From: Eledone cirrhosa | Taxonomy: Eukaryota | Direction: 5' to 3' | DNA length: 64,000 nucleotides | Assembly: GCA_964016885.1 (NCBI GenBank) | Contig: OZ024746.1 | Span: 1,736,001-1,800,000 of the forward strand | Part shown: piece by piece, positions 1 through 59,160 of the stretch | Layout: each line of letters opens with the position of its first letter | Position numbering within the stretch: position 1 is the first letter of the stretch | Notes under the pieces: model-generated | Databases searched by the model: none | What the model was told of the DNA's origin: nothing | What the model saw: only the letters and a program-made list of their open reading frames with translations | Program-made: the position numbers and the translations under genes

Positions 1-3000
1 TCTCCAATGACACAACACACCACTGAGTAATGTGAAATAAAGTGTCTTCTCCAATGACACAACACACCACTGAGTAATGTGAAATAAAGTGTCTTCTCCA
101 ATGACACAACACACCACTGAGTAATGTGAAATAAAGTGTCTTCTCCAATGACACAACACACCACTGAGTAATGTGAAATAAAGTGTCTTCTCCAATGACA
201 CAACACACCACTGAGTAATGTGAAATAAAGTGTCTTCTCCAATGACACAACACACCACTGAGTAATGTGAAATAAAGTGTCTTCTCCAATGACATAACAC
301 ACCACTGAGTAATGTGAAATAAAGTGTCTTCTCCAATGACACAACACACCACTGAGTAATGTGAAATAAAGTGTCTTCTCCAATGACACAACACACCACT
401 GAGTAATGTGAAATAAAGTGTCTTCTCCAATGACACAACACACCACTGAGTAATGTGAAATAAAGTGTCTTCTCCAATGACACAACACACCACTGAGTAA
501 TGTGAAATAAAGTGTCTTCTCCAATGACACAACACACCACTGAGTAATGTGAAATAAAGTGTCTTCTCCAATGACACAACACACCACTGAGTAATGTGAA
601 ATAAAGTGTCTTCTCCAATGACACAACACACCACTGAGTAATGTGAAATAAAGTGTCTTCTCCAATGACACAACACACCACTGAGTAATGTGAAATAAAG
701 TGTCTTCTCCAATGACACAACACACCACTGAGTAATGTGAAATAAAGTGTCTTCTCCAATGACACAACACACCACTGAGTAATGTGAAATAAAGTGTCTT
801 CTCCAATGACATAACACACCACTGAGTAATGTGAAATAAAGTGTCTTCTCCAATGACACAACACACCACTGAGTAATGTGAAATAAAGTGTCTTCTCCAA
901 TGACACAACACACCACTGAGTAATGTGAAATAAAGTGTCTTCTCCAATGACACAACACACCACTGAGTAATGTGAAATAAAGTGTCTTCTCCAATGACAC
1001 AACACACCACTGAGTAATGTGAAATAAAGTGTCTTCTCCAATGACACAACACACCACTGAGTAATGTGAAATAAAGTGTCTTCTCCAATGACATAACACA
1101 CCACTGAGTAATGTGAAATAAAGTGTCTTCTCCAATGACACAACACACCACTGAGTAATGTGAAATAAAGTGTCTTCTCCAATGACACAACACACCACTG
1201 AGTAATGTGAAATAAAGTGTCTTCTCCAATGACATAACACACCACTGAGTAATGTGAAATAAAGTGTCTTCTCCAATGACACAACACACCACTGAGTAAT
1301 GTGAAATAAAGTGTCTTCTCCAATGACACAACACACCACTGAGTAATGTGAAATAAAGTGTCTTCTCCAATGACACAACACACCACTGAGTAATGTGAAA
1401 TAAAGTGTCTTCTCCAATGACATAACACACCACTGAGTAATGTGAAATAAAGTGTCTTCTCCAATGACACAACACACCACTGAGTAATGTGAAATAAAGT
1501 GTCTTCTCCAATGACACAACACACCACTGAGTAATGTGAAATAAAGTGTCTTCTCCAATGACACAACACACCACTGAGTAATGTGAAATAAAGTGTCTTC
1601 TCCAATGACACAACACACCACTGAGTAATGTGAAATAAAGTGTCTTCTCCAATGACATAACACACCACTGAGTAATGTGAAATAAAGTGTCTTCTCCAAT
1701 GACACAACACACCACTGAGTAATGTGAAATAAAGTGTCTTCTCCAATGACACAACACACCACTGAGTAATGTGAAATAAAGTGTCTTCTCCAATGACATA
1801 ACACACCACTGAGTAATGTGAAATAAAGTGTCTTCTCCAATGACACAACACACCACTGAGTAATGTGAAATAAAGTGTCTTCTCCAATGACACAACACAC
1901 CACTGAGTAATGTGAAATAAAGTGTCTTCTCCAATGACATAACACACCACTGAGTAATGTGAAATAAAGTGTCTTCTCCAATGACACAACACACCACTGA
2001 GTAATGTGAAATAAAGTGTCTTCTCCAATGACACAACACACCACTGAGTAATGTGAAATAAAGTGTCTTCTCCAATGACACAACACACCACTGAGTAATG
2101 TGAAATAAAGTGTCTTCTCCAATGACACAACACACCACTGAGTAATGTGAAATAAAGTGTCTTCTCCAATGACACAACACACCACTGAGTAATGTGAAAT
2201 AAAGTGTCTTCTCCAATGACACAACACACCACTGAGTAATGTGAAATAAAGTGTCTTCTCCAATGACACAACACACCACTGAGTAATGTGAAATAAAGTG
2301 TCTTCTCCAATGACATAACACACCACTGAGTAATGTGAAATAAAGTGTCTTCGTGAAATAAAGTGGTCTTCTCCAATGACATAACACACCACTGAGTAAT
2401 TGAAATAAAGTGTCTTCTCCAATGACATAACACACCACTGAGTAATGTGAAATAAAGTGTCTTCTCCAATGACATACACACCACTGAGTAATGTGAAATA
2501 AAGTGTCTTCTCCAATGACATAACACACCACTGAGTAATGTGAAATAAAGTGTCTTCTCCAATGACACAACACACCACTGAGTAATGTGAAATAAAGTGT
2601 CTTCTCCAATGACATAACACACCACTGAGTAATGTGAAATAAAGTGTCTTCTCCAATGACACAACACACCACTGAGTAATGTGAAATAAAGTGTCTTCTC
2701 CAATGACACAACACACCACTGAGTAATGTGAAATAAAGTGTCTTCTCCAATGACACAACACACCACTGAGTAATGTGAAATAAAGTGTCTTCTCCAATGA
2801 CATAACACACCACTGAGTAATGTGAAATAAAGTGTCTTCTCCAATGACATAACACACCACTGAGTAATGTGAAATAAAGTGTCTTCTCCAATGACATAAC
2901 ACACCACTGAGTAATGTGAAATAAAGTGTCTTCTCCAATGACACAACACACCACTGAGTAATGTGAAATAAAGTGTCTTCTCCAATGACATAACACACCA

Positions 3001-4832
3001 CTGAGTAATGTGAAATAAAGTGTCTTCTCCAATGACATAACACACCACTGAGTAATGTGAAATAAAGTGTCTTCTCCAATGACATAACACACCACTGAGT
3101 AATGTGAAATAAAGTGTCTTCTCCAATGACACAACACACCACTGAGTAATGTGAAATAAAGTGTCTTCTCCAATGACACAACACACCACTGAGTAATGTG
3201 AAATAAAGTGTCTTCTCCAATGACACAACACACCACTGAGTAATGTGAAATAAAGTGTCTTCTCCAATGACACAACACACCACTGAGTAATGTGAAATAA
3301 AGTGTCTTCTCCAATGACACAACACACCACTGAGTAATGTGAAATAAAGTGTCTTCTCCAATGACACAACACACCACTGAGTAATGTGAAATAAAGTGTC
3401 TTCTCCAATGACACAACACACCACTGAGTAATGTGAAATAAAGTGTCTTCTCCAATGACATAACACACCACTGAGTAATGTGAAATAAAGTGTCTTCTCC
3501 AATGACACAACACACCACTGAGTAATGTGAAATAAAGTGTCTTCTCCAATGACACAACACACCACTGAGTAATGTGAAATAAAGTGTCTTCTCCAATGAC
3601 ACAACACACCACTGAGTAATGTGAAATAAAGTGTCTTCTCCAATGACACAACACACCACTGAGTAATGTGAAATAAAGTGTCTTCTCCAATGACACAACA
3701 CACCACTGAGTAATGTGAAATAAAGTGTCTTCTCCAATGACACAACACACCACTGAGTAATGTGAAATAAAGTGTCTTCTCCAATGACACAACACACCAC
3801 TGAGTAATGTGAAATAAAGTGTCTTCTCCAATGACACAACACACCACTGAGTAATGTGAAATAAAGTGTCTTCTCCAATGACACAACACACCACTGAGTA
3901 ATGTGAAATAAAGTGTCTTCTCCAATGACACAACACACCACTGAGTAATGTGAAATAAAGTGTCTTCTCCAATGACACAACACACCACTGAGTAATGTGA
4001 AATAAAGTGTCTTCTCCAATGACACAACACACCACTGAGTAATGTGAAATAAAGTGTCTTCTCCAATGACACAACACACCACTGAGTAATGTGAAATAAA
4101 GTGTCTTCTCCAATGACACAACACACCACTGAGTAATGTGAAATAAAGTGTCTTCTCCAATGACACAACACACCACTGAGTAATGTGAAATAAAGTGTCT
4201 TCTCCAATGACACAACACACCACTGAGTAATGTGAAATAAAGTGTCTTCTCCAATGACACAACACACCACTGAGTAATGTGAAATAAAGTGTCTTCTCCA
4301 ATGACACAACACACCACTGAGTAATGTGAAATAAAGTGTCTTCTCCAATGACACAACACACCACTGAGTAATGTGAAATAAAGTGTCTTCTCCAATGACA
4401 CAACACACCACTGAGTAATGTGAAATAAAGTGTCTTCTCCAATGACACAACACACCACTGAGTAATGTGAAATAAAGTGTCTTCTCCAATGACACAACAC
4501 ACCACTGAGTAATGTGAAATAAAGTGTCTTCTCCAATGACACAACACACCACTGAGTAATGTGAAATAAAGTGTCTTCTCCAATGACACAACACACCACT
4601 GAGTAATGTGAAATAAAGTGTCTTCTCCAATGACACAACACACCACTGAGTAATGTGAAATAAAGTGTCTTCTCCAATGACACAACACACCACTGAGTAA
4701 TGTGAAATAAAGTGTCTTCTCCAATGACACAACACACCACTGAGTAATGTGAAATAAAGTGTCTTCTCCAATGACACAACACACCACTGAGTAATGTGAA
4801 ATAAAGTGTCTTCTCCAATGACACAACACACC
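1..4832. repeat. 47-bp satellite, about 103 copies, open at the window start; unit is the reverse complement of a SINE core segment
   Basis: Unit tctccaatgacacaacacaccactgagtaatgtgaaataaagtgtct repeats with period 47. Mainly cac/cat variants, with one irregular patch at about 2350-2480. Confidence 0.98.
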
Positions 4833-4900
4833 ACCAGGCCAGGGAATCCCACAACCTGGTGAGTATAAGCCCAACACTAACCACTAAACCATATGGCTTC
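4833..4900 (-). mobile_element. Degenerate tRNA-derived SINE head (family A), contiguous with the 47-bp satellite
   Basis: Reverse complement gaagccatatggtttagtggttagtgttggg... matches the head ggaggcacatggcttagtggttagagcattgg at 7491. Confidence 0.75.
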
Positions 4901-4989
4901 ACAGCATACATACATTTGTGTGTGTGCGCGCGTTGGTGAGTGAAAGTTTACCAATCAGTTATATAGCCTCTTCCTGTATGTCGGCTACA

Positions 4990-5027: not shown

Positions 5028-5099
<72 letters not shown>

Positions 5100-6692: not shown

Positions 6693-6892
6693 NNNNNNNN
6701 NNNNNNNNNNNNNNNNNNNNNNNNNNNNNNNNNNNNNNNNNNNNNNNNNNNNNNNNNNNNNNNNNNNNNNNNNNNNNNNNNNNNNNNNNNNNNNNNNNNN
6801 NNNNNNNNNNNNNNNNNNNNNNNNNNNNNNNNNNNNNNNNNNNNNNNNNNNNNNNNNNNNNNNNNNNNNNNNNNNNNNNNNNNNNNNNNNNN
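6693..6892. other. Assembly gap (200 N)
   Basis: Run of N. Confidence 1.
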
Positions 6893-7836: not shown

Positions 7837-9978
7837 CATCATCATCATCATCACCGTTTTTACGTCCGTTCTTCCCACGCTAGCATGGGTTAGACGGGTT
7901 GTCCTGTTGTGTGCAGTGTCTGGTCGGCTGACCATGCCTTGCTCATACAGGAACTGATCTGGCTTGATTTCTACAGCTGGATGCCCTTCCTAACACCAAC
8001 CTCATTTACAGTGAGTGCTGGGTGCTTTTTCGTGGCGCCTACACGACCACTTTACAGTGTGGGCTGGGTGCTTTTTTGCCGTGGCACCTCCACGACCACC
8101 TTGCGGTGGGGGGTGTGGGGGCATATTGTTTATATGCTTCAGCATGTACCCATGGGAGGTCGGGTACTCTGTATTACTGCGTGACGCCAGAAGTCACGGT
8201 CGTGTGTCATTGTCTTTGAGAGGTGTAGTTGGGTAAGGTCGGATTTTATCACCTCATCCCAGGTCATCTTGGGTCTCCCCACTCCGCGGTTTCCATCAAC
8301 TTCTAGTGCTCTGCACCTTTTTATGCAGCTGTCATCCTTCATACGCATCACATGTCCATACCAGCGCAACCGCCTCTCCTGCACACAGCATTTGATTCCT
8401 CTTATGCTCAGTCTCTCTCTCAATTCATTTATGCTTTGTCGTTCACGTATATTACTGTTACACATCCATCGGAGCATGCAGGCTTCGTTTCTCTCTAATC
8501 TACGTAAGTCTTCCACCTTCAGCGCCCAGGTCTCACTACCATGCAACATCGCTGTTCGGATACACGCATCATACAGTCTGCCTTTCATTCTGAGGGAGAA
8601 GCCTTTTGCAGCTAGCAGTGGTAGTAGTTCCCTAAACTTCTTCATCCCGTTCTTACCCTAGTTATTGTACTTTCTGAACACCCACCTCCGTTGCTAATTC
8701 GGTCACCTAGGTAGCAGAAGCTGTCTACTGTTTCTACAGGGCCCTCCCAGAGATTGGTGGTACTTGTTTCCTGTGGCTGTTTGCTGCTTGCTGTTTCAGC
8801 ACAGCTGCTGCATGTGAATCCTACATTCTTAATTAAGCTTCCTGAGATCCCGCTACATCTCTTGTGTACCCATTGTTTGCATTTGGGGCAGAGAATGGAG
8901 TTCCTACCTACACCTTTCCTACATACTGAGCAAGGCCATTTCCCTGAGGGGATCTGGGTTCTGTTTTCTCGTCTACTTACAAGGACCTTAGTCTTTGTCA
9001 TGTTGACTTTGAGACCCTTTCTTTCTAGTCCCTGCTTCCAGGTTTGGAATTTATTCTCTAGTTCTACCATAGATTCTGCTATGAGTGCGAGGTCATCAGC
9101 ATACAGGAGTTCCCATGGGCATCCGGTCTTAAACTCCTCCGTTATTGCCTGCAGGACTATGATGAACAGGAGAGGGCTAAGAACAGAGCCCTGGTGGACC
9201 CCAACCTGTACGCTAAATTCCTTGCTATACTCATTGCTAATCCTAACTTTGCTGACTGCTCCCCTATACATGGCTTGTACCGCTTTCACAAGCCATTCAT
9301 CTACTCCTAGTTTTCTAAGAGCCCACCAGATTACCGCACGTGGAACTCTGTCAAAGGCTTTCTCAAGGTCGACAAATGCCAAGTAGAGTGGCTTACTTTT
9401 AGCTAGGTACTTTTCCTGTAATTGCCTCACAAGGAAGAGGGCATCAGTGGTGCCTTTCCCTAGTACAAACCCAAATTGCATCTCGTCTATTTTCACCCGG
9501 TCCCTAATCAGCTGTGCTATAACTCTTTCTGTTACTTTCATGACCTGGTCCATCAACTTTATACCTCTATAGTTTCCTCTATCTAGTGCATCGCCTTTAC
9601 CTTTGTAGCAGTTGACAATGATGCTACTGCACAAATCTTTTGGTATGGCCCCTTCTAGTATTACCTGGTTAACGATACGTGTGGTTATAGTGTGACCTAC
9701 AGACCCAGATGCCTTCAGCATCTCGGCAGCTATCCCCGATGGACCGGTTGCCTTCCCCATCTTCATATCTCTGATTGCCTTACTTACTACGCTGCCGCTG
9801 ACTTGTACTGCTGGTCCCTCTATAGGGTCTACTTGGGGTAGGGTCTCTTCTTCCCATGCATTCTCCTCATTTAGTAATCTATCATAATGACTCTTCCATG
9901 CATCTTTCTTCTCAGCACTTGTGAGGGCAAGCTCACCTTTATCATTCCGGATACACTTCTCTCCAATGACATCACAAC
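7837..9978 (-). mobile_element. 5'-truncated RTE-clade LINE (family A): RT, PHD finger, C-terminal region, 3' UTR and (GAT)n tail
   Basis: Motifs GNYRGIKL, QFGF, AFVDLEKAFDRV, GVHQGSVLSPLLF, LLYADD, YLG, RLRWYGHV, GRPKMTW. The frame is open from about 9976 (CDVIGEKCIRND...). A single 1-bp deletion at about 8643 (GGA TG[G] AAG) splits ORF 8642-9766 from ORF 8139-8645. Confidence 0.96.
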
Positions 9979-15160: not shown

Positions 15161-15191
15161 AGCTAAACTGAGCTAGACTGAGCTGTGTTAA

Positions 15192-17345
15192 TCTGATGCC
15201 AGATCAGATCAGATAATACAGGCAGTCTGATAATGTTGACTAATACAGACATCTGATCTGATCCCAGATCAGATCAGATAATACAGGCAGTCTGATAGTG
15301 TTGACTAATACAGACATCTGATCTGATACCAGATCAGATCAGATAATACAGGCAGTCTGATAGTGTTGACTAATACAGACATCTGATCTGATACCAGATC
15401 AGATCAGATAATACAGGCAGTCTGATAGTGTTGACTAATACAGACACGAGATCTGATCCCAGATCAGATCAGATAATACAGGCAGTCTGATAGTGTTGAC
15501 TAATACAGACATGAAATCTGATCCCAGATCAGATCAGATAATACAGGCAGTCTGATAGTGTTGACTAATACAGACATCTGATCTGATACCAGATCAGATC
15601 AGATAATACAGGCAGTCTGATAGTGTTGACTAATACAGACATGAGATCTGATCCCAGATCAGATCAGATAATACAGGCAGTCTGATAGTGTTGACTAATA
15701 CAGACATCTGATCTGATCCCAGATCAGATCAGATAATACAGGCAGTCTGATAGTGTTGACTAATACAGACATCTGATCTGATACCAGATCAGATCAGATA
15801 ATACAGGCAGTCTGATAGTGTTGACTAATACAGACATCTGATCTGATACCAGATCAGATCAGATAATACAGGCAGTCTGATAGTGTTGACTAATACAGAC
15901 ATGAGATCTGATCCCAGATCAGATCAGATAATACAGGCAGTCTGATAGTGTTGACTAATACAGACATCTGATCTGATACCGGATCAGATAATACAGGCAG
16001 TCTGATAATGTTGACTAATACAAACATGAGATCTGATCCCAGATCAGATCAGATAATACAGGCAGTCTGATAGTGTTGACTAATACAGACATCTGATCTG
16101 ATACCAGATCAGATAATACAGGCAGTCTGATAGTGTTGACTAATACAGACATGAGATCTGATCCCAGATCAGATCAGATAATACAGGCAGTCTGATAGTG
16201 TTGACTAATACAGACATCTGATCTGATACCAGATCAGATCAGATAATACAGGCAGTCTGATAGTGTTGACTAATACAGACATGAGATCTGATACCGGATC
16301 AGATCAGATAATACAGGCAGTCTGATAGTGTTGACTAATACAGACATGAGATCTGATACCGGATCAGATCAGATAATACAGGCAGTCTGATAGTGTTGAC
16401 TAATACAGACATCTGATCTGATACCAGATCAGATCAGATAATACAGGCAGTCTGATAGTGTTGACTAATACAGACATCTGATCTGATACCAGATCAGATC
16501 AGATAATACAGGCAGTCTGATAGTGTTGACTAATACAGACATCTGATCTGATACCAGATCAGATCAGATAATACAGGCAGTCTGATAGTGTTGACTAATA
16601 CAGACATCTGATCTGATACCAGATCAGATCAGATAATACAGGCAGTCTGATAGTGTTGACTAATACAGACATGAGATCTGATCCCAGATCAGATAATACA
16701 GGCAGTCTGATAGTGTTGACTAATACAGACATGAGATCTGATCCCAGATCAGATCAGATAATACAGGCAGTCTGATAGTGTTGACTAATACAGACATCTG
16801 ATCTGATACCAGATCAGATCAGATAATACAGGCAGTCTGATAGTGTTGACTAATACAGACATGAGATCTGATCCCAGATCAGATCAGATAATACAGGCAG
16901 TCTGATAGTGTTGACTAATACAGACATCTGATCTGATACCAGATCAGATCAGATAATACAGGCAGTCTGATAGTGTTGACTAATACAGACATCTGATCTG
17001 ATACCAGATCAGATCAGATAATACAGGCAGTCTGATAGTGTTGACTAATACAGACATGAGATCTGATCCCAGATCAGATCAGATAATACAGGCAGTCTGA
17101 TAGTGTTGACTAATACAGACATCTGATCTGATACCAGATCAGATCAGATAATACAGGCAGTCTGATAGTGTTGACTAATACAGACATGAGATCTGATCCC
17201 GGATCAGATCAGATAATACAGGCAGTCTGATAGTGTTGACTAATACAGACATGAGATCTGATCCCAGATCAGATCAGATAATACAGGCAGTCTGATAGTG
17301 TTGACTAATACAGACATCTGATCTGATCCCGGATCAGATCTAATC
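15192..17345. repeat. 65-bp minisatellite, about 33 copies, with an internal hairpin
   Basis: Period 65 (15266, 15331, 15396); contains atctgatctgat-N5-atcagatcagat. Confidence 0.96.
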
Positions 17346-24345: not shown

Positions 24346-25091
24346 AGATATTTAACTCTACTCTAGCTCATATAATAAAACCAGAACTAAAAAGATCTTT
24401 GGGAGTTAGTTTCAGAAGATATTTAGATTCAAGCAACTATTTCTATTTCAAGAGAATACAATAAAAATATTAAATTCTTTAACACCTGCAAAAAAAAAAT
24501 AAAGTTTATAAATTTGAACCATTACACTATTTTTTACAACATTTCTAAGAAGAGCAACCACAAACAAACAGGAATATGATAGGTAAAACATTGAAAAGGA
24601 AACACTGGGCAATGAAACCTTCTGTCAGCAGAGACATTTAATAGGGAGATAAGAAAGATAACAGTTATAATGTAGGAAACACTAAACTTAGAGAATTAAT
24701 GGGTGGAGGGGGTATTGTTGGGAAGGAAAAAAGAAAAGAAAGGAATAAATAAAGGAAGATGAGAAAAGAAAGCAAGAAAAGAAAAATCGAAGAAAAAAGC
24801 AGAGAATGGAAAAAAGAAAGATAGAAGGACTGAAAAATGGAATGGAAGACAATGAAAAAAGAAAAATACAAAACCAGAAGGGAAGAGAGATAGAATGAAA
24901 GAAGAGAAGAAAGAAATGTGTGAGAAAAAAAATAGAAAGGACAAAGGAGAGAAAAAAATGAGAGATGGGAGATGAAAAAAAAAGAGAAAGAAAACAAATG
25001 AAAAAAGAAACGAAAAATAAATCAGTGATATCCAAGATTCGGAATTCAGCAATTTTCCTGATCTTATTTTATATAATAGTAATGGTAAGAC

Positions 25092-28115: not shown

Positions 28116-28228
28116 CAAATAAAGGATTTCTCCAGCTTCTTGAATGCATTCTATAGGTTTATTGCTTTTATCTAAAGTTGGGTAAATTGTATTAAACCAT
28201 TCCAGAATTGTAAAACCAAAAGGGATGC
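28116..28228 (-). CDS. JMJD8-like: JmjC/TPR gene, exon 3: (G)IPFGFTILEWFNTIYPTLDKSNKPIECIQEAGEILYL
   Basis: Acceptor gtatttttatag, donor TTG|gtaagt, 113 nt, phase 1 to 0. W...YP.L.....P.EC.Q..GE..Y is characteristic of JMJD6/JMJD8-type JmjC domains. Confidence 0.95.
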
Positions 28229-28968: not shown

Positions 28969-29540
28969 GGTAAAGTTTTCAGTTTCGCTCTTTTATTTGA
29001 ATCGGAAATTCCACAGCTAAAGAAAATATGACAGTTTTTACCATAACACATTTTCAATTCTAGTGCAAAATAAATGCTAGCTTAGCAAATAGTTTTTTAG
29101 AAAATGTTATAAGCTATATGAAGGAATCGTCTTAATAGCTGTTGGATCATAACCTCATAAAACTGTCAAAGGCTACATCCTAGAATTGATACTTCACACA
29201 TTAAATATTTTGTTCTCTGTCTCCAGACTTTTCTACTTAAGTAATTTCTTTCTTAAGCCTGCTTTTCTCATTGCGTGAAACAGTGTCAGGGCATTATATT
29301 TTAACAAAATATAGTATAACTTCTCTAAGCATTAATTCTGAATAGCAGCCTATCATTATATTTCAGTAGATATGATGATGAAGCCAACATCACTGATAAT
29401 GGTTGTAATGTTAGTGATGATGATGATGATAGTAATGGTGGTTGTAGAGAAGTAATACTAATATAGTTGATGATCAAGTTGACAGTGATGGTATTTATAA
29501 TGATGATAATAATCATATCACACCCTACAATCTTTAAAAG

Positions 29541-32500
29541 GATATATTACATACTGTAGGGTATATTACATATTGTAGGGTATATTAGGTATTGTAGGGT
29601 ATATTAGATACTGTAGGGTATATTAGGTATTGTAGGGTATATTAGGTATTGTAGGGTATATTAGGTATTGTAGGGTATATTAGATACTGTAGGGTATATT
29701 AGGTATTGTAGGGTATATTAGGTATTGTAGGGTATATTAGGTATTGTAGGGTATATTAGGTATTGTAGGGTATATTAGATATTGTAGGGTATATTAGGTA
29801 TTGTAGGGTATATTAGGTATTGTAGGGTATATTAGATATTGTAGGGTATATTAGGTATTGTAGGGTATATTAGGTATTGTAGGGTATATTAGGTATTGTA
29901 GGGTATATTAGGTATTGTAGGGTATATTAGATATTGTAGGGTATATTAGGTATTGTAGGGTATATTAGGTATTGTAGGGTATATTAGATACTGTAGGGTA
30001 TATTAGGTATTGTAGGGTATATTAGATATTGTAGGGTATATTAGGTATTGTAGGGTATATTAGGTATTGTAGGGTATATTAGGTATTGTAGGGTATATTA
30101 GGTATTGTAGGGTATATTAGGTATTGTAGGGTATATTAGGCATTGTAGGGTATATTAGATACTGTAGGGTATATTAGGTATTGTAGGGTATATTAGATAT
30201 TGTAGGGTATATTAGGTATTGTAGGGTATATTAGGTATTGTAGGGTATATTAGGTATTGTATGGTATATTAGGTATTGTAGGGTATATTAGGTATTGTAG
30301 GGTATATTAGGTATTGTAGGGTATATTAGGTATTGTAGGGTGTATTAGATACTGTAGGGTATATTAGGTATTGTAGGGTATATTAGATATTGTAGGGTAT
30401 ATTAGGTATTGTAGGGTATATTAGGCATTGTAGGGTATATTAGGTATTGTAGGGTATATTAGGTATTATAGGGTATATTAGGTATTGTAGGGTATATTAG
30501 ATACTGTAGGGTATATTAGGTATTGTAGGGTATATTAGGTATTGTAGGGTATATTAGGCATTGTAGGGTATATTAGGCATTGTAGGGTATATTAGGCATT
30601 GTAGGGTATATTAGGTATTGTAGGGTATATTAGGTATTGTAGGGTATATTAGGTATTGTAGGGTATATTAGGCATTGTAGGGTATATTAGGTATTGTAGG
30701 GTATATTAGGTATTGTAGGGTATATTAGGTATTGTAGGGTATATTAGATATTGTAGGGTATATTAGGTATTGTAGGGTATATTAGATATTGTAGGGTATA
30801 TTAGGTATTGTAGGGTATATTAGATATTGTAGGGTATATTACATACTGTAGGGTATATTACATATTGTAGGGTATATTAGATATTGTAGGGTATATTAGA
30901 TATTGTAGGGTATATTAGGTATTGTAGGGTATATTAGGCATTGTAGGGTATATTAGGTATTGTAGGGTATATTAGGTATTGTAGGGTATATTAGGTATTG
31001 TAGGGTATATTAGGTATTGTAGGGTATATTAGATATTGTAGGGTATATTAGGTATTGTAGGGTATATTAGATATTGTAGGGTATATTAGGTATTGTAGGG
31101 TATATTAGATATTGTAGGGTATATTACATACTGTAGGGTATATTACATATTGTAGGGTATATTAGATATTGTAGGGTATATTAGATATTGTAGGGTATAT
31201 TAGGTATTGTAGGGTATATTAGATATTGTAGGGTATATTAGGTATTGTAGGGTATATTAGGTATTGTAGGGTATATTACATATTGTAGGGTATATTAGAT
31301 ATTGTAGGGTATATTAGATATTGTAGGGTATATTAGGTATTGTAGGGTATATTAGGTATTGTAGGGTATATTAGATATTGTAGGGTCTATTAGGTATTGT
31401 AGGGTATATTAGATATTGTAGGGTATATTAGGTATTGTAGGGTATATTACATATTGTAGGGTATATTAGATATTGTAGGGTCTATTAGGTATTGTAGGGT
31501 ATATTAGATATTGTAGGGTATATTAGATATTGTAGGGTATATTAGGTATTGTAGGGTATATTAGATATTGTAGGGTATATTAGATATTGTAGGGTCTATT
31601 AGGTATTGTAGGGTATATTAGATATTGTAGGGTATATTAGATATTGTAGGGTATATTAGATATTGTAGGGTATATTAGATATTGTAGGGTATATTAAATA
31701 TTGTAGGGTATATTAGGTATTGTAGGGTATATTAGGTATTCTAGGGTATATTAGATATTGTAGGGTCTATTAGATATTGTAGGGTATGTTAGATACTGTA
31801 GGGTATATTACATACTGTAGGGTATATTACATATTGTAGGGTATATTAGATATTGTAGGGTATATTAGATATTGTAGGGTATATTAGATATTGTAGGGTA
31901 TATTAGGTATTGTAGGGTATATTAGATATTGTAGGGTATATTAGGTATTGTAGGGTATATTAGGTATTGTAGGGTATATTACATATTGTAGGGTATATTA
32001 GATATTGTAGGGTATATTAGATATTGTAGGGTATATTAGATATTGTAGGGTATATTAGGTATTGTAGGGTATATTAGATATTGTAGGGTATATTAGGTAT
32101 TGTAGGGTATATTAGATATTGTAGGGTATATTAGATATTGTAGGGTATATTAGATATTGTAGGGTCTATTAGGTATTGTAGGGTATATTAGAGATTGTAG
32201 GGTATATTAGATATTGTAGGGTATATCAGATATTGTAGGGTATATTAGATATTGCAGGGTATATTAAATATTGTAGGGTATATTAGGTATTGTAGGGTAT
32301 ATTAGGTATTGTAGGGTATATTAGATATTGTAGGGTCTATTAGATATTGTAGGGTATATTAGATATTGTAGGGTATATTAGGTATTGTAGGGTATATTAG
32401 GTATTGTAGGGTATATTAGGTATTGTAGGGTACATTAGGTATTGTAGGGTATATTAGGTATTGTAGGGTATATTAGGTATTGTAGGGTATATTAGGCATT

Positions 32501-34261
32501 GTAGGGTATATTAGATATTGTAGGGTATATTAGGTATTGTAGGGTATATTAGATATTGTAGGGTATATTAGGTATTGTAGGGTATATTAGGTATTGTAGG
32601 GTATATTACATATTGTAGGGTATATTAGATATTGTAGGATATATTAGATATTGTAGGGTATATTAGGTATTGTAGGGTATATTAGATATTGTAGGGTATA
32701 TTAGATATTGTAGGGTCTATTAGGTATTGTAGGGTATATTAGATATTGTAGGGTATATTAGGTATTGTAGGGTATATTACATATTGTAGGGTATATTAGA
32801 TATTGTAGGGTCTATTAGGTATTGTAGGGTATATTAGATATTGTAGGGTATATTAGATATTGTAGGGTATATTAGGTATTGTAGGGTATATTAGATATTG
32901 TAGGGTCTATTAGGTATTGTAGGGTATATTAGATATTGTAGGGTATATTAGATATTGTAGGGTATATTAGATATTGTAGGGTATATTAGGTATTGTAGGG
33001 TATATTACATATTGTAGGGTATATTAGATATTGTAGGGTATATTAGATATTGTAGGGTATATTAAATATTGTAGGGTATATTAGGTATTGTAGGGTATAT
33101 TAGGTATTGTAGGGTATATTAGATATTGTAGGGTCTATTAGATATTGTAGGGTATATTAGATATTGTAGGGTATATTAGATATTGTAGGGTATATTAGGT
33201 ATTGTAGGGTATATTAGATATTGTAGGGTATATTAGGTATTGTAGGGTATATTAGGTATTGTAGGGTATATTAGGTATTGTAGGGTATATTAGGTATTGT
33301 AGGGTATATTAGGTATTGTAGGGTATATTAGGTATTGTAGAGTATATTAGGTATTGTAGGGTATATTAGGTATTGTAGGGTATATTAGGTATTGTAGGGT
33401 ATATTAGATATTGTAGGGTATATTAGGTATTGTAGGGTATATTAGATATTGTAGGGTATATTAGGTATTGTAGGGTATATTAGATATTGTAGGGTATATT
33501 AGATATTGTAGGGTATATTAGATATTGTAGGGTCTATTAGGTATTGTAGGGTATATTAGAGATTGTAGGGTATATTAGATATTGTAGGGTATATCAGATA
33601 TTGTAGGGTATATTAGATATTGCAGGGTATATTAAATATTGTAGGGTATATTAGGTATTGTAGGGTATATTAGGTATTGTAGGGTATATTAGATATTGTA
33701 GGGTCTATTAGATATTGTAGGGTATATTAGATATTGTAGGGTATATTAGGTATTGTAGGGTATATTAGGTATTGTAGGGTATATTAGGTATTGTAGGGTA
33801 CATTAGGTATTGTAGGGTATATTAGGTATTGTAGGGTATATTAGGTATTGTAGGGTATATTAGGCATTGTAGGGTATATTAGATATTGTAGGGTATATTA
33901 GGTATTGTAGGGTATATTAGATATTGTAGGGTATATTAGGTATTGTAGGGTATATTAGGTATTGTAGGGTATATTACATATTGTAGGGTATATTAGATAT
34001 TGTAGGATATATTAGATATTGTAGGGTATATTAGGTATTGTAGGGTATATTAGATATTGTAGGGTATATTAGATATTGTAGGGTCTATTAGGTATTGTAG
34101 GGTATATTAGATATTGTATGGTATATTAGGTATTGTAGGGTATATTACATATTGTAGGGTATATTAGATATTGTAGGGTATATTAGATATTGTAGGGTAT
34201 ATTAGATATTGTAGGGTATATTAGATATTGTAGGGTATATTAGGTATTGTAGGGTATATTA
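29541..34261. repeat. 19-bp satellite, about 248 copies
   Basis: Unit tattgtagggtatattag(g/a). Confidence 0.98.
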
Positions 34262-34439
34262 TGTCTGCCATGAATAAAATGAAAATGTCACAGTTGTTTA
34301 CCCACATCTTTGTAATAAACTGTCTTCTAAGTACAACAATTATGAAAACATAAATTACATATAAAATTTAAAATCATCAGACAATCCTGACATTGAGCTG
34401 TAACTTAACTACAGAATGGTTGATTTCTACCTGATTGAA

Positions 34440-34940
34440 GACATGGTGAAGATAGCCAGCAAGTCAGTCAAAGATGACCTGAGTGAGGTATTCAGCCATG
34501 TCCAGCTCGGAGTGGGAGTTAAGTGTGGACGTGAGGCAGTTGCTCATACAGCTAGACATTTCATAGAGCACACACCTCCTTTATTACTCCACCTTCTAGT
34601 GAAGCTGGACATGAGAAATGCTTTCAACAGTGTTAGGTCAGATTACATCTGAGAGACTTGTCTTAGATGAGCCTCATCGATGTTCTCTCTTGCTCAGCTC
34701 TCATACAAAACACCCCGCATACTCATGGCTACTCACCACTAGGTCTCTTCTGACATGAATGTCCAGCAAGGTGACCCATTTGGCCTCCTCACCTTTGCAC
34801 TGGCCATCAAGGATGTTGCCTACTCTGCCCAGTCACTCTTCAATGTCTGGTACCTGTATGATGTGACCCTGAGTGGATCAGTTGAGTTGGTAGTTGAGGC
34901 TATTCCTCCCAACTTTAAAGCTCCTGAGGAGCTATCTATC
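34440..34940 (+). mobile_element. Degraded CRE-clade reverse transcriptase fragment
   Basis: QLGVGVKCGREAVAH..., KLDMRNAFNSV, VQQGDPFG..FALAI, WYLYDVTL (degenerate YLDD); in-frame stops. Confidence 0.8.
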
Positions 34941-35930: not shown

Positions 35931-36508
35931 CTTATGCCTGCTACAGGTACCATGTAGAGGTACTTATGCCTGCTACAGGTACCATGTAGAGGTACTTATG
36001 CCTGCTACAGGTACCATGTAGAGGTACTTATGCCTGCTACAGGTACCATGTAGAGGTACTTATGCCTGCTACAGGTACCATGTAGAGGTACTTATGCCTG
36101 CTACAGGTACCATGTAGAGGTACTTATGCCTGCTACAGGTACCATGTAGAAGTACTTATGCCTGCTACAGGTACCATGTAGAAGTAGAGGTACTTATGCC
36201 TGCTACAGGTACCATGTAGAGGTACTTATGCCTGCTACAGGTACCATGTAGAGGTACTTATGCCTGCTACAGGTACCATGTAGAGGTACTTATGCCTGCT
36301 ACAGGTACCATGTAGAGGTACTTATGCCTGCTACAGGTACCATGTAGAGGTACTTATGTCTGCTACAGGTACGATGTAGAGGTACTTATGCCTGCTACAG
36401 GTACCATGTAGAGGTAGAGGTACTTATGCCTGCTACAGGTACCATGTAGAGGTACTTATGCCTGCTACAGGTACCATGTAGAGGTACTTATGCCTGCTAC
36501 AGGTACAT
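35931..36508. repeat. 32-bp minisatellite, about 18 copies
   Basis: Unit cttatgcctgctacaggtaccatgtagaggta. Confidence 0.95.
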
Positions 36509-36724: not shown

Positions 36725-36866
36725 CTCCAGGTGGTGCTTTCCTAGGAGGATAAAGAAACCATCTTTTCTTTCCAAAAACAACAGCATTCCAGGCATCAGC
36801 ATGTTTATGAAAAGTTACCCCAGTGCCAGTTGCTCCAAGGAAAAATAGACTATCATGCACATGTTC
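36725..36866 (-). CDS. JMJD8-like: JmjC/TPR gene, exon 2 (catalytic core): EHVHDSLFFLGATGTGVTFHKHADAWNAVVFGKKRWFLYPPRKAPPG
   Basis: Acceptor ggttttattacag, donor GAG|gtaagg, 142 nt, phase 0 to 1. G.GV.FHxH...G.KRWFLYPP matches the JMJD8 signature. Confidence 0.96.
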
Positions 36867-39019: not shown

Positions 39020-39257
39020 TAATTGTTTCTACTTTTGGCACAAGGCCAACAATTATCCCAGTGCATTACTGGTACTTTATTTTATCGATCCAGTAAGGAT
39101 GAAAGGCAAAGTTAACCTCGGCAGGATTTGAACCCAGATCATAAAGGGAGGTAACTCTATGCTTCAAAGCATGGTGTCCGACCCTCTACCGATACTGCCA
39201 ATCCACCACCCTAGCATGGTGTCCGACCCTCTACCGATACTGCCAATCCACCACCCT
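39020..39257 (-). mobile_element. SINE family B with a duplicated 45-bp head
   Basis: agcatggtgtccgaccctctaccgatactgccaatccaccaccct at 39168 and 39213. Confidence 0.9.
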
Positions 39258-39362: not shown

Positions 39363-40895
39363 CACCTCTCTTTCTCAGCTTCACTCATCTACCTCTCTCT
39401 CAGCTTCACTCATCTACCTCTCTCTCAGCTTCACTCATCTACCTCTCTCAGCTTCACTCATCTACCTCTCTCTCAACTTCACTCATCTACCTCTCTCTCA
39501 ACTTCACTCATCTACCTCTCTCTCAGCTTCACTCATCTACCTCTCTCTCAACTTCACTCATCTACCTCTCTCTGTTTCACTCATCTACCTCTCTCTCAAC
39601 TTCACTCATCTACCTCTCTCTGTTTCACTCATCTACCTCTCTCTGTTTCACTCATCTACCTCTCTCTCAACTTCACTCATCTACCTCTCTCTCAACTTCA
39701 CTCATCTACCTCTCTCTCAGCTTCACTCATCTACCTCTCTCTCAACTTCACTCATCTACCTCTCTCTCAACTTCACTCATCTACCTCTCTCTCAGCTTCA
39801 CTCATCTACCTCTCTCTCAACTTCACTCATCTACCACTCTCTCAGCTTCACTCATCTACTTCTCTCTCAACTTCACTCATCTACCTCTCTCTGTTTCACT
39901 CATCTACCTCTCTCTCAACTTCACTCATCTACCTCTCTCTCAGCTTCACTCATCTACCTCTCTCTCAACTTCACTCATCTACCTCTCTCTCAGCTTCACT
40001 CATCTACCTCTCTCTCAGCTTCACTCATCTACCTCTCTCTCAACTTCACTCATCTACCTCTCTCTCAACTTCACTCATCTACCTCTCTCTCAGCTTCACT
40101 CATCTACCTCTCTCTCAACTTCACTCATCTACCTCTCTCTCAGCTTCACTCATCTACCTCTCTCTCAGCTTCACTCATCTACCTCTCTCTCAACTTCACT
40201 CATCTACCTCTCTCTGTTTCACTCATCTACCTCTCTCTCAACTTCACTCATCTACCTCTCTCTGTTTCACTCATCTACCTCTCTCTCAACTTCACTCATC
40301 TACCTCTCTCTGTTTCACTCATCTACCTCTCTCTCAACTTCACTCATCTACCTCTCTCTCAGCTTCACTCATCTACCTCTCTCTCAACTTCACTCATCTA
40401 CCTCTCTCTCAGCTTCACTCATCTACCTCTCTCTCAACTTCACTCATCTACCTCTCTCTCAACTTCACTCATCTACCTCTCTCTCAGCTTCACTCATCTA
40501 CCTCTCTCTCAACTTCACTCATCTACCACTCTCTCAGCTTCACTCATCTACCTCTCTCTGTTTCACTCATCTACCTCTCTCTCAACTTCACTCATCTACC
40601 TCTCTCAGCTTCACTCATCTACCTCTCTCTCAACTTCACTCATCTACCTCTCTCTGTTTCACTCATCTACCTCTCTCTCAGCTTCACTCATCTACCTCTC
40701 TCTCAACTTCACTCATCTACCTCTCTCTCAGCTTCACTCATCTACCTCTCTCTCAGCTTCACTCATCTACCTCTCTCTCAGCTTCACTCATCTACCTCTC
40801 TCTCAGCTTCACTCATCTACCTCTCTCTCAGCTTCACTCATCTACCTCTCTCTCAACTTCACTCATCTACCTCTCTCTCAACTTCACTCATCTAC
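39363..40895. repeat. 25-bp (23-bp variant) pyrimidine-rich minisatellite, about 60 copies
   Basis: Unit cttcactcatctacctctctctca(g/a). Confidence 0.96.
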
Positions 40896-41027
40896 CACTA
40901 CACCATCACAATTAATACTTTAGCTCACCACCAACTCTCCACTTTACATCTTACTCCCAACATGGTGCCTGGGTGATGAGGGAAGGCATCAGATATCTCT
41001 CTATATACATCTACTGCTAATCCATCA

Positions 41028-43607: not shown

Positions 43608-43927
43608 AACAATGCATATTATGCTGAAACTGGTATTGTAAATAAATCAATGTTTTGATATTTCACTGAAAAAAATCTTAACATTTTCTACTGAAAAAAT
43701 CTTTCTCCTTTCTACTATTTGTTTTCATATATATATATGTGTGTGTGTACTGTAATGTGGTTGGCGTTACGAAGAGCATCCAACAAAACCAAGCCAAAAT
43801 CAGTTCTATGAGCAAGACATGGTCAGCTGACCTCGACTTACCTCAAATACGACAACTCATCTGACCCATGCTAGTGCGGGAAATGGACGTTAAACGGTGA
43901 TGATCACGATGAATAAGTAAGAACGAG

Positions 43928-44130
43928 GTCAAAGTATCATCATTAAGTTTATTCAGGTGTGATGGGTGTTTCACAATTGATCAGCTCAAGGTTTGAACTG
44001 TATTGATCGGGCTCAACTCTGGAATCAATAGTTCATCAGACTCAGGCCCAATCGATACAGATCGAACCTTGAACTGATCAATCATGAAATGCACGTCACA
44101 CCTGAATAAACTTAATGATGATACTTCGAC
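43928..44130. mobile_element. Fold-back, MITE-like hairpin element with arms of about 85 bp
   Basis: Perfect 31-bp arm aagtatcatcattaagtttattcaggtgtga / tcacacctgaataaacttaatgatgatactt; inner arms are imperfect. Confidence 0.8.
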
Positions 44131-44135
44131 ACCTC

Positions 44136-44305: not shown

Positions 44306-44342
44306 TGAAATTACACTCTAGTTATATAGGAAACTGAGCTAG

Positions 44343-44890
44343 TATACACCATGTACTATACTACAATAGACCATAGTATAACACCATGTACTATAGTATA
44401 ACACCATGTACTATACTACAATAGACCATAGTATAACACCATGTACTATAGTATAACACCATGTACTATACTACAATAGACCATAGTATAACACCATGTA
44501 CTATAGTATAACACCATGTACTATACTACAATAGACCATAGTATAACACCATGTACTATAGTATAACACCATGTACTATACTACAATAGACCATAGTATA
44601 ACACCATGTACTATAGTATAACACCATGTACTATACTACAATAGACCATAGTATAACACCATGTACTATAGTATACACCATGTACTATACTACAATAGAC
44701 CATAGTATAACACCATGTACTATAGTATAACACCATGTACTATACTACAATAGACCATAGTATAACACCATGTACTATAGTATAACACCATGTACTATAC
44801 TACAATAGACCATAGTATAACACCATGTACTATAGTATAACACCATGTACTATACTACAATAGACCATAGTATAACACCATGTACTATAC
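44343..44890. repeat. 55-bp minisatellite (20+35 sub-repeats), about 10 copies
   Basis: Period 55 (44371, 44426). Confidence 0.93.
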
Positions 44891-45996: not shown

Positions 45997-46470
45997 CAAT
46001 CAGCTCAAGGTACAACAGTACCGATGACAATCAGCTCAAGGTACAACCAGTACCGATGACAATCAGCTCAAGGTACAACCAGTACCGATGACAATCAGCT
46101 CAAGGTACAACAGTACCGATGACAATCAGCTCAAGGTACAACCAGTACCGATGACAATCAGCTCAAGGTACAACCAGTACCGATGACAATCAGCTCAAGG
46201 TACAACCAGTACCGATGACAATCAGCTCAAGGTACAACCAGTACCGATGACAATCAGCTCAAGATACAACCAGTACCGATGACAATCAGCTCAAGATACA
46301 ACCAGTACCGATGACAATCAGCTCAAGGTACAACTAGTATCGATGACAATCAGCTCAAGGTACAACAGTATTGATGACAATCAGCTCAAGGTACAACAGT
46401 ATTGATGACAATCAGCTCAAGGTACAACAGTATTGATGACAATCAGCTCAAGGTACAACCAGTATTGATG
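45997..46470. repeat. 31-32-bp minisatellite, about 15 copies, inside a relic of the 43928 hairpin element
   Basis: Unit caatcagctcaaggtacaaccagtaccgatga; the right flank caactttggaatcaataactcaatcagactca matches 44014-44044. Confidence 0.9.
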
Positions 46471-46756
46471 TCGCCCAACTTTGGAATCAATAACTCAATC
46501 AGACTCATGGTTTCCTTAATGAGGTGAGATATCTAAGTACAGCTTTAAATGACCATTTCTCATTCAGTTGAGGTGTTAGAGTGTTCATTGTTTTGATTGG
46601 TTGGGGAGAGAATAGAATAGAGAAGAAAGGGAGACAAGGGAGAAAGGAAGGAGGGAGAAGGAGGGAGAAGAGGGCAAGGTGAGCCTAAATAATGGTGGAA
46701 AGAGAAGGAAAGGGTGAAGAGAATGGAGGATAATAGAGAGAGATAGAAGATAAAAA

Positions 46757-50771: not shown

Positions 50772-51052
50772 AAAGTGCACCAGGTGTGTTCACCATCATA
50801 TTCTTTCAGTTATTACCCAAAATTCAATACTGAATTGAAGATAGCGAGTTTGGCTTTTATGCCTATAAATATGTATTTAGTTAAATGTGGGCTACCATAC
50901 TTAATTCCAGCCCCTTAATTCATCATCATCACCATCATTGATTCTAAGTTTAAAACCTTCCAAATAACCCCAGAGCAGCCCAAGTAATGAAGCTGCTACT
51001 GATTTCAAAATACAGTCAGTTTGTAAACATAACAAGAAAGATAAAAATTTAC

Positions 51053-51131
51053 CTTAAATTTTAATATTTTTGGAAACTTGAGGGACGAAGGAAGATCTGA
51101 ATCTTGGTAAAAATATCGATCAAATACATAC
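51053..51131 (-). CDS. JMJD8-like: JmjC/TPR gene, exon 1 of 6 in window: (x)YVFDRYFYQDSDLPSSLKFPKILKFK
   Basis: Acceptor tcttttattttag, donor AAG|gtaaat, 79 nt, phase 2 to 0, in frame with exon 36725-36866. A Y.FD motif precedes the core in JMJD6-type JmjC proteins. Confidence 0.85.
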
Positions 51132-55275: not shown

Positions 55276-55396
55276 ATAAGGAACTCTGTAAATAATTGAG
55301 TGCCTTATGGGCTAAAAAGCCCAAATGACAAATTCTAAAGGAAGTTTCAGTTTCATTGCAAACCCTAAATTCTTAGAATAACAAACCAGATGGTAC

Positions 55397-57728: not shown

Positions 57729-58313
57729 TGTTATTGATGGGTTGGGTATTACATTTCACTGGTACATTAATTTTTTGGCACAGTTTCTATAACCGGATTA
57801 CCTTCCTTTCACAAACCACCTTACAGAGGGTACTTAATGCATCCTATTATGGCACAGGTGCACCACATAATATACAATATACACAACTTGTACAATAAAC
57901 ACAACAAAATATACAATATATACAACTTATACAATATATATTTCTGAAACCAGCAATAATAAAAATAAAATTGACAATTAAATTATTGCTAATCATTAAT
58001 TACATAACTAAAATGTTCATAATATATAGTTCCCATCCGTGGACCTAATCTTACAGCTTCATCAACAATGCTAGAGATTATTAGCGGAAAACATCATAAA
58101 TATGATGAAAGTGTTAGACAGCTATCACAGTGTAGTTTGGGCATTAATTGTTAAAAATATGATAACAAAGATGTTACTTTGGAGTTGGTTTTGGTCCTTA
58201 TATTTTGAGATAAAATCCTTCAGCAAAATAATAATTTTCAAATTAAAAAATGGCAGCTTAAGAGCAACAAAAGGTATCCTGCTCCAAATATAAGGACCAA
58301 TATGCTCCAAATA

Positions 58314-59160
58314 TAATTGTTTCTACTTTTGACACAAGACCAGCAATTATCCCAGTGTATTACTGGTACTTTATTTTATCGACCCCGTAAGTTAACCTCG
58401 GCAGGATTTGAACTCGGACCGTAAAGGGACGTAACTATGCTAGAAAGCATGGTGTCCAACCCTCTACCAATACTGCCAATCCACCACCCTAACATGGCGT
58501 CCAACCCTCTACCAATACTGCCAATCCACCACCCTAACATGGCGTCCAACCCTCTACTAATACTGCCAATCCACCACCCTAACATGGCGTCCAACCCTCT
58601 ACCAATACTGCCAATCCACCACCCTAGCATGGTGTCCGACCCTCTACCAATACTGCCAATCCACCACCCTAGCATGGTGTCCGACCCTCTACCAATACTG
58701 CCAATCCACCACCCTAGCATGGCGTCCGACCCTCTACCAATACTGCCAATTCATCACCCTAGCATGGCGTCCAACCCTCTACCAATACTGCCAATCCACC
58801 ACCCTAGCATGGCGTCCAACCCTCTACCAATACTGCCAATTCACCACCCTAGCATGGCGTCCAACCCTCTACCAATACTGCCAATTCACCACCCTAGCAT
58901 GGCGTCCAACCCTCTACCAATACTGCTAATTCACCACCCTAGCATGGCGTCCAACCCTCTACCAATACTGCTAATTCACCACCCTAGCATGGTGTCCAAC
59001 CCTCTACCAATACTGCCAATCCACCACCCTAGCATGGCGTCCGACCCTCTACCAATACTGCCAATTCACCACCCTAGCATGGTGTCCAACCCTCTACCAA
59101 TACTGCCAATCCACCACCCTAGCATGGTGTCCGACCCTCTACCAATACTGCTAATTCACC
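58314..59160 (-). mobile_element. SINE family B whose 45-bp head is amplified to about 16 tandem copies (58446-59160)
   Basis: SINE tail, core and B-box at 58314-58445, then (agcatggcgtccaaccctctaccaatactgccaatccaccaccct)n. Confidence 0.93.

What the first reader, a model, noticed from the sequence alone, without database searches (positions are those of the whole stretch)
1..59160. Recurrent conversion of internal segments of dispersed elements into tandem arrays, seen at several stages in one gene
Seen: at least four arrays sit inside a copy of a dispersed element and amplify one internal segment of it. These are the SINE-A core x~103 (1-4832), the SINE-B head x2 (39168) and x~16 (58446), a SINE-B-like internal 53-mer x~4 (26920) and a hairpin-MITE arm x~15 (45997); the 19-mer at 29541 is a possible fifth. 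Four more arrays (15192, 35931, 39363, 44343) start within about 25-110 bp of a SINE end. Established: TE-derived satellites are known individually. Inference: this density suggests a systematic, lineage-specific amplification process tied to these elements (RT slippage or rolling-circle/eccDNA reinsertion) that inflates introns.
Basis: partly seen in the sequence, partly recalled or inferred. Interest (0 to 1): 0.75.

Follow-up and report, generated by a model that had tools for sequence, protein, structure and literature searches.

The report
SINE-head satellite seeding neighbouring SINE copies
Most tandem arrays in this chromosome-end region are ordinary minisatellites that sit in mobile elements no more often than chance, but the first 45 bases of one common short mobile element (a SINE) are repeated with one fixed joint inside roughly 200 separate copies near chromosome ends, and that joint likely spreads from arrays into neighbouring copies by DNA repair or recombination, with no function shown.

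Summary
All named arrays exist. The general claim fails: arrays lie inside dispersed repeats no more than chance (27 of 96 vs 31.6 expected; window 5 of 19 vs 8.1), and the window is 1.7 Mb from a chromosome end, where minisatellites fill 10-26% of sampled DNA against 1-2% inside. The 47-mer and 32-mer are single-locus; the 19-mer has no element link. One part is real and systematic: the 45-bp SINE-B head is multimerised with one fixed junction (5,096 exact junctions; about 200 loci), inside TSD-flanked SINEs of all three body subfamilies. Inner heads are full-length where the resident head is truncated; 43 of 48 loci on C1-C4 are distal; arrays within 1 Mb share rare variants (7 of 42 pairs vs 1.1%, P=0.001). 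Best reading: post-insertion transfer of the junction from nearby arrays, then local expansion; RT slippage is disfavoured. The junction is in raw reads of another sample and in two other organism labels. Closest known: squamate sSats. The scan noted this phenomenon before on other DNA of this genome.

The parts
1..4834 (-). 47-bp minisatellite, 113 copies in all (starts 492 bp left of the window), grown inside one SINE-A copy just after its tRNA-like head; single-locus
   Evidence: junction found 111 times, the 100 listed all at this locus
4835..4901 (-). tRNA-like head of the SINE-A copy that hosts the 47-mer
   Evidence: 74% match to SINE-A copies at 7490 and 62896; the 62896 copy hits Rfam tRNA at E 0.0015, below gathering score
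39019..39257 (-). complete SINE-B with two identical 45-bp heads (39168-39257)
   Evidence: junction plus body is an exact genome-wide pattern
58313..59161 (-). SINE-B with 16 heads (58446-59161); outermost head truncated to about nt 5-6, inner 15 full-length
   Evidence: shares the nt-10 variant with the two-head copy 44 kb away in L034
26851..27133 (-). degraded SINE-B remnant (26851-26915) abutting a 53-bp x4 array (26918-27133); derivation from the SINE only partial
45997..46507 (+). 32-bp x15 array at the edge of a 66-bp fragment resembling the hairpin at 43926-44132; single-locus
   Evidence: junction found 11 times, all here
43926..44132 (.). imperfect 207-bp palindrome (80% arm identity), a few diverged relatives nearby; MITE status not shown
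29539..34261 (+). 19-bp x249 minisatellite with no detectable link to a dispersed element
15191..17340 (+). 65-bp x33 minisatellite starting near a SINE remnant; unit not element-derived
35931..36506 (+). 32-bp x18 minisatellite 24 bp after a SINE-B end; unit not element-derived
39368..40896 (+). 25-bp x62 minisatellite 110 bp from the two-head SINE-B; unit not element-derived
44340..44889 (+). 55-bp x10 minisatellite 35 bp after a SINE-B end
36728..36851 (-). exon of a JmjC/cupin gene (host gene)
   Evidence: open frame; Pfam Cupin_8 E 8e-4, below cut-off; JMJD6 E 0.006; single copy
28116..28228 (-). next exon of the same gene (AG/GT bounded, open frame)
   Evidence: no Pfam hit on its own

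Best explanation
Two processes overlap: a position-dependent birth of minisatellites from any sequence near chromosome ends accounts for most arrays here, while the 45-bp SINE-B head arrays form one genome-wide family whose fixed junction is likely copied into resident SINEs from nearby arrays by DNA repair or recombination and then likely expands in place. Shown: the array sits at the 5' end of an otherwise complete, TSD-flanked SINE; the junction joins nt 45 to nt 1; inner heads hold bases the resident head lacks; all body subfamilies carry arrays; loci are distal; neighbours share rare variants. Inferred: a break in a SINE head is repaired on a homologous head inside an existing array (or on a circle excised from one), picks up the junction, and returns to its own locus one unit out of register; slippage and unequal exchange then take 2 heads to tens or more than a thousand. 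How the first junction arose is not resolved. No function is inferred.
For: Fixed junction: 5,096 exact matches, 0 for the reversed control; last-unit-plus-body patterns 113 and 197 matches at <=1 mismatch on most chromosomes; 482 of 488 head spacings are 45. Not locally derivable: 969 of 997 inner heads start at nt 1-2, against 28 of 74 outer heads and 34 of 134 single heads; 12 of 74 loci were flagged with a TSD of >=9 bp abutting a shortened outer head, 2 of them borderline. Derived T at nt 5 in inner heads: 26 loci with outer C and next head T, 2 the reverse; last junction T:C 20:11 on C1 to the start of C12 against 11:47 in single heads. Subfamily-independent: bodies i/ii/iii 45/17/27 in 89 multi-head vs 42/40/52 in 134 single copies. 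Distal: 43 of 48 loci on C1-C4 within 60 Mb of an end (30% expected, P 6e-18), though single heads are at least as dense inside (18 in 200 kb interior, 19 in 390 kb terminal; 100 exact heads in the first 41 Mb of C1 vs 19,206 in 2,996 Mb). Neighbour sharing among 94 arrays: 7 of 42 pairs within 1 Mb share a non-CpG variant vs 47 of 4,329 others, P=0.001; flanks differ in the pairs checked. L215's outer head starts near nt 12 yet its 3 inner heads carry G8, found in only 3 of 94 arrays, all at C2 18.4-19.2 Mb. L152/L157 (99% identical flanks) show an array moved from one body to another by head-to-head exchange. Generic background: no enrichment; density by position.
Against: No orthologous locus with one head in one genome and several in another was seen. 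Some two-head copies share private variants in both heads (L062, L034, window 39168), which needs a short donor tract or later homogenisation; several full-length all-C arrays (L208-L210) could be plain local duplications. Most array loci were fetched with patterns that demanded a near-consensus last unit with T at nt 5, inflating the T share. Subfamily i is over-represented among arrays (45 of 89 vs 42 of 134). With the common T44 variant included, sharing within 0.5 Mb is not significant (3 of 25, P=0.09). The A9 cluster could come from an adjacent head in cis at L228. The repeat library came from about 1 Mb of samples, so old or rare elements under arrays are missed (arrays look depleted, which is probably this bias).
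Confidence: 0.62

Rival explanations
1. Multi-head source elements were transcribed from an outer head and retrotransposed as dimers or multimers, then expanded locally where recombination is high.
For: TSDs enclose array plus body (34 of 74 loci with >=10 bp, like 56 of 134 singles); outer heads are truncated like single heads; outer C / inner T pattern fits a fixed master; many outer heads carry private changes absent from the last head.
Against: Needs several masters, one per body subfamily; two-head copies should follow SINE density into chromosome interiors but multi-head loci are distal (43 of 48); does not predict variant sharing between neighbours with different bodies.
Confidence: 0.2
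2. Reverse transcriptase jumps at insertion from the 5' end of the SINE RNA to nt 45 of the same or another head, independently at each locus.
For: Junction falls exactly at the SINE 5' end and at the start of a small hairpin/T-run in the head-body boundary (fold); explains full-length inner heads and any subfamily; could be the origin of the founder junction.
Against: The last inner head should mirror the RNA pool (about 80% C at nt 5) but is mostly T; no reason for distal bias or neighbour sharing.
Confidence: 0.07
3. Each head array is an independent in-place duplication at a sequence hotspot.
For: True for the 47-mer and 32-mer (single-locus junctions); fits full-length cases with shared private variants.
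Against: 46 of 74 outer heads lack the first bases that inner heads carry; no microhomology between flanks and nt 45 was seen in the flanks listed.
Confidence: 0.06
4. A general element-tied amplifier converts segments of many kinds of dispersed elements into arrays more often than other DNA (the finding as written).
For: 3 clear and 2 partial cases in the window; several units recur at distant loci.
Against: No enrichment in three tests; 35-41% of non-tandem window DNA is dispersed repeat, so 5-8 hits of 19 are expected.
Confidence: 0.05

Closest known systems
SINE-derived satellites (sSat1-3) of squamates, Vassetzky, Kosushkin and Ryskov 2023, PMC10702118 (read parts 1-4 of 5)
   Same: Tandem repeats of part of a tRNA-SINE at many loci, one dominant unit (snake sSat3), a few to about 1,000 units per locus, subtelomeric bias against evenly spread SINEs, terminal unit continuing into the SINE.
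   Different: Unit 45 nt (theirs about 67-290 nt) and is the very 5' head, stopping before the B-box; here the host SINE is usually whole with TSDs, which that paper calls a minor variant; the parts read give no locus-to-locus transfer evidence, whereas truncation mismatch and neighbour sharing were tested here.
Rsp-like satellite seeding into 1.688 clusters in Drosophila simulans/mauritiana, Sproul et al. 2020, PMC7403614 (passages read)
   Same: A rare junction arises once and spreads to loci where a homologous repeat already sits, by interlocus conversion or eccDNA reintegration; same junction at many loci.
   Different: There two unrelated satellites are joined by microhomology on one chromosome; here the landing pads are dispersed SINE heads on all chromosomes, the junction is head-to-head with no visible microhomology, and no eccDNA data exist.
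TE-derived minisatellites of human and mouse (Alu-derived; B1-derived GGCAGA family), as summarised in review PMC9659126 (passages read; primary papers not read)
   Same: Single-locus arrays born inside a SINE, like the 47-mer; review passage gives about 23% of human tandem arrays as TE-derived.
   Different: Does not describe a fixed junction imported into truncated resident copies.
CORE-SINEs (octopus OR1 named in PMC4824008, passage read)
   Same: SINE-A has a tRNA-like head followed by a central block that resembles CORE (resemblance recalled).
   Different: No CORE consensus was aligned; membership untested.

Membership tests
SINE-derived satellite (sSat type) | Tandem unit is a sub-segment of a dispersed SINE | tested here: met
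   45-mer = nt 1-45 of SINE-B; 47-mer inside SINE-A
SINE-derived satellite (sSat type) | Same unit at many loci, with at least four monomers | tested here: met
   45-mer: 65 of 89 examined body-linked loci have >=4 heads; not met by the 47-mer or 32-mer, which are single-locus
SINE-derived satellite (sSat type) | Subtelomeric bias while the SINE is evenly spread | tested here: met
   43 of 48 loci distal on C1-C4; single heads as dense or denser inside
SINE-derived satellite (sSat type) | Copy number varies between orthologous loci | tested here: inconclusive
   Only one paralogous or allelic pair, L152/L157, 21 vs 4 heads; no orthologues or long reads
tRNA-derived SINE (SINE-B) | High copy number, TSDs, simple-repeat tail | tested here: met
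   19,206 exact 42-mers; TSD >=10 bp in 56 of 134 single copies, starting in an ATT-rich tail
tRNA-derived SINE (SINE-B) | tRNA-related head | tested here: inconclusive
   No Rfam tRNA hit at E<=10; A- and B-box-like motifs are recognised from memory only, separated by an extra ~40 nt stem
tRNA-derived SINE (SINE-A) | tRNA-related head | tested here: met
   Rfam tRNA E 0.0015, 25.6 bits, under the gathering score 29
CORE-SINE (SINE-A) | Homology to the ~60-bp CORE domain | not tested
Interlocus-seeded satellite (Rsp-like/1.688 model) | Same junction at many pre-existing homologous sites; imported part discordant with resident part | tested here: met
Interlocus-seeded satellite (Rsp-like/1.688 model) | Synteny shows the site was occupied before the junction arrived; repeat present on eccDNA | not testable with these tools
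   no relative genome held; contigs of relatives break inside the SINE
MITE (hairpin at 43926) | Terminal inverted repeats, TSD and high copy number | tested here: inconclusive
   80% palindrome, only a handful of 72-79% partial relatives in the sample; TSD not examined

The most novel reading that the evidence does not exclude
A 45-bp head-to-head junction behaves as a self-propagating, protein-free genetic element: it converts single-head SINEs into satellite seeds by homologous copying from neighbouring arrays, using some 10^5 dispersed SINE heads as landing pads, only in distal chromatin, with junction haplotypes that drift by neighbourhood and by species; each seeded copy, with its own TSD and truncation as a barcode, records donor, recipient and later growth up to tens of kilobases.
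Probability: 0.5. Interest if true: 0.62.

Novelty: new variant of a known kind. Interest (0 to 1): 0.42.

Why it matters
How a satellite reaches new loci (interlocus conversion, circles or retrotransposition) is usually hard to read because donor and recipient cannot be told apart. Here every recipient is a SINE with its own truncation, TSD and body subfamily, so imported and resident bases can be separated at hundreds of loci, and distance decay can be measured. That makes the question directly testable in one genome. The broader claim of element-driven intron inflation does not hold: array density follows chromosome position.

Tried and rejected
General enrichment of arrays in or beside dispersed repeats: three tests, none positive. 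Multi-locus status of the 47-mer and 32-mer: rejected. Element origin of the 19-mer, 65-mer, 25-mer and 32-mer at 35931: no match. ARAGORN and Rfam at gathering score found nothing in the window; no tRNA hit for SINE-B. Laying reads on the two-head copy could not separate junction reads from chance two-base extensions and no reads covered its unique flanks, so the state of that locus in other samples is unknown; replaced by a single-head reference. No RNA holder listed. Runs X1-X3 may be the source sample and are not counted as independent; X6 has a small share. Assembly artefact rejected for the junction itself but copy numbers were not checked. A local origin of the inner bases from the similar 5-mer at nt 28-32 of the head was considered and dropped, because inner heads carry all of nt 1-11 where the resident lacks them. 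First census scripts missed heads or timed out and were replaced. Rows left out of counts: overlapping fetches of the same locus, loci lying wholly inside long arrays, 15 of 89 multi-head loci whose outer end was off the edge or mis-chained (74 kept), L157 (duplicate of L152) in the neighbour test, and the position-sorted hits and inner-unit hits in the distal test. Literature searches (titles and abstract starts only) listed no paper on SINE-head satellites in a cephalopod; supplements were not seen and subscription papers are not held.
Full report
Setting. The window is G000:C6:1,736,001-1,800,000 of a 3.0-Gb animal genome; C6 is 102.6 Mb, so the window lies 1.7 Mb from a chromosome end. The SINEs resemble octopus tRNA-SINEs; that label is recalled and comes from no call. 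Tandem repeats cover 45% of the window. A minus-strand JmjC/cupin gene has exons at 36728-36851 and 28116-28228 and candidate exons near 11761 and 51050-51131; its ends were not mapped.

Observation. TRF finds every array named. The 47-mer continues 492 bp left of the window to 113 copies and is enclosed by the head (4835-4901) and the 3' part of one SINE-A. The 45-mers at 39168 (x2) and 58446 (x16) are the first 45 nt of complete SINE-B copies. The 53-mer abuts a degraded SINE-B remnant and aligns to it only over about 30 nt; the 32-mer at 45997 lies at the edge of a 66-bp match to a 207-bp palindrome; the 19-mer matches nothing else. So three clear cases, two partial, one unsupported.

Is it more than chance? 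I fetched 200 kb flanking the window and 79 further 10-kb samples at fixed positions (39 at 1.5 Mb from ends, 20 in the interior of C1-C4, 20 inside small chromosomes), collapsed each array to one unit, mapped dispersed repeats by all-against-all BLAST, and compared with random intervals of the same size. Units inside dispersed repeats: 27 of 96 against 31.6 expected; outside but within 110 bp: 17 against 18.1. With a more sensitive search: 41 of 89 against 43.6. In the window, with 19 hand-listed arrays: 5 inside against 8.1 (7 if the two partial cases are added), 15 inside or within 110 bp against 12.7, P=0.19; 35-41% of the non-tandem DNA is dispersed repeat. The library is small and diverged units are under-detected, so the apparent depletion of long arrays is not trusted, but no enrichment appears. 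What does explain the density is position: complex minisatellites fill 25.7% of terminal samples, 10.2% of the 264-kb region, 1.2% of big-chromosome interiors and 2.0% of small-chromosome interiors. The junctions of the 47-mer and the 32-mer occur only at this locus (111 matches, 100 listed, all here; 11 of 11): ordinary in-place minisatellites that happened to start in a repeat.

The real exception. The SINE-B head junction (nt 45 joined to nt 1) occurs 5,096 times exactly, with 0 for the reversed control. Patterns for last unit plus body give 113 and 197 matches at up to one mismatch, 60 of them shared, on most chromosomes: about 200 loci after merging, a lower bound. Against 19,206 exact 42-nt heads this is about 0.5% genome-wide (49 exact plus an extrapolation from 19 of 51 listed rows) but 5 of the 100 heads in the first 41 Mb of C1. 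In 89 fetched multi-head copies with a body, head number runs from 2 (18 loci) to more than 30; hits spanning 13-60 kb show much longer arrays. Array and body lie inside one TSD pair as often as single copies do (34 of 74, 56 of 134). On a single-head reference, raw Illumina reads of another sample and study show the go-back-45 joint in 212 reads with 20 starts, the commonest joint by starts; contigs of organisms B and C show it too, B mostly with a different base at nt 44. The junction is not an assembly artefact; copy numbers were not checked.

Mechanism. (1) Inner heads are not copies of the resident head's start: 969 of 997 begin at nt 1-2, against 28 of 74 outer heads and 34 of 134 single heads, and about ten loci have a TSD abutting the shortened outer head. 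(2) Inner heads mostly carry T at nt 5 where outer and single heads carry C (26 loci C-then-T, 2 the reverse; singles 47 C, 11 T). My patterns favoured T, but the unbiased last-junction ratio is 20 T to 11 C and all 5 arrays found without that pattern are majority T. T at nt 44 is the majority in 13 of 89 arrays against 5 of 134 singles. (3) All three body subfamilies carry arrays (45/17/27 vs 42/40/52). (4) 43 of 48 loci on C1-C4 lie within 60 Mb of an end (30% expected), while single heads are as dense inside. (5) Among 94 arrays, pairs within 1 Mb share a non-CpG variant in 7 of 42 cases against 47 of 4,329 (P=0.001, without T44; 8 of 42, P=0.004 with it; not significant at 0.5 Mb with it). 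G8 occurs in only three arrays, all at C2 18.4-19.2 Mb, one of which (L215) has an outer head starting near nt 12; A9 occurs in only three, all at C1 433.3-434.1 Mb; flanks differ, so these are not segmental duplicates. The window's 16-mer and the dimer 44 kb away share A10. (6) L152 and L157, with 99% identical flanks, differ by a head-to-head exchange that put the array on another body. Together these favour copying of the junction from a nearby array into a resident head after insertion, followed by local expansion. Both steps are inferred. Against: shared private variants in a few dimers, over-representation of subfamily i, and no orthologous before/after pair. Retrotransposed multi-head masters (0.2) explain TSDs and truncation but not points 4 and 5. 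RT jumping at insertion (0.07) fails points 2, 4 and 5, though it could have made the founder junction, which falls at the SINE's first base and at the foot of a small stem. Conversion versus circle reinsertion cannot be separated here.

Comparison. The family works like the squamate sSats (PMC10702118, parts 1-4 of 5 read) and meets the features I could test; it differs in unit (the 5' head, 45 nt) and in keeping the whole host SINE. The spreading model is that of Rsp-like seeding 1.688 clusters (PMC7403614, passages). Single-locus TE-born minisatellites are common in human and mouse (review PMC9659126, passages). SINEs dominate octopus repeats (PMC9068888, passage). Six searches (listings only) showed no cephalopod report. 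Earlier notes of this scan on other windows of this genome describe the same head arrays and a similar reading; my reading was written before I saw them and they are not independent support.

Verdict. The finding as written is mostly a chromosome-end minisatellite background; one component is a real, systematic SINE-head satellite with good indirect evidence of neighbour-to-neighbour seeding. New variant of a known kind, interest 0.42.

Noticed in passing
window 25087-26583; L073 (C3 1.50-1.51 Mb); about window coordinate 149400 region of L039 side: The 42-bp unit matches (86%) a >=10-kb array near the end of C3 and a short copy elsewhere on C6: a second multi-locus distal minisatellite with no known parent.
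   Followed up: partly
L071, L073, L075, L085, L086, L088, L091, L105: 8 of 39 terminal 10-kb samples lie wholly inside a single minisatellite, each with a different 23-75 bp unit.
   Followed up: partly
L023:3547-3728 and L087:8575-8701: A 29-bp unit resembling a tRNA-like SINE head forms arrays on C6 and C19: possibly a second head-derived family.
   Followed up: no
window 8005-8099; L099, L104, L116: 46-48 bp units of the common dispersed element seen at 7659, 19005 and 63059 recur as arrays of 2 to 181 copies at several loci.
   Followed up: no
L152 (C2 392.29 Mb) and L157 (C4 182.6 Mb): 99% identical 3-kb loci on two chromosomes: a recent duplication or a misplaced haplotype; they differ by loss of one SINE body.
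   Followed up: partly
L042 (C2 21.86 Mb): Long head array mixing 45-nt and 50-nt units, a second junction five bases further into the body.
   Followed up: no
run X4 laid on window 39213-39229: Organism B shows very high summed contig depth across a variant head junction, hinting that the head satellite is more amplified there; depth of contigs is not a copy number.
   Followed up: no
window 8200-9960 and 34400-34930: GC-richer stretches that look by eye like LINE reverse-transcriptase fragments; not translated or searched.
   Followed up: no
window 6693-6892: 200-base assembly gap (N run) just after a 43-bp x2 repeat.
   Followed up: no
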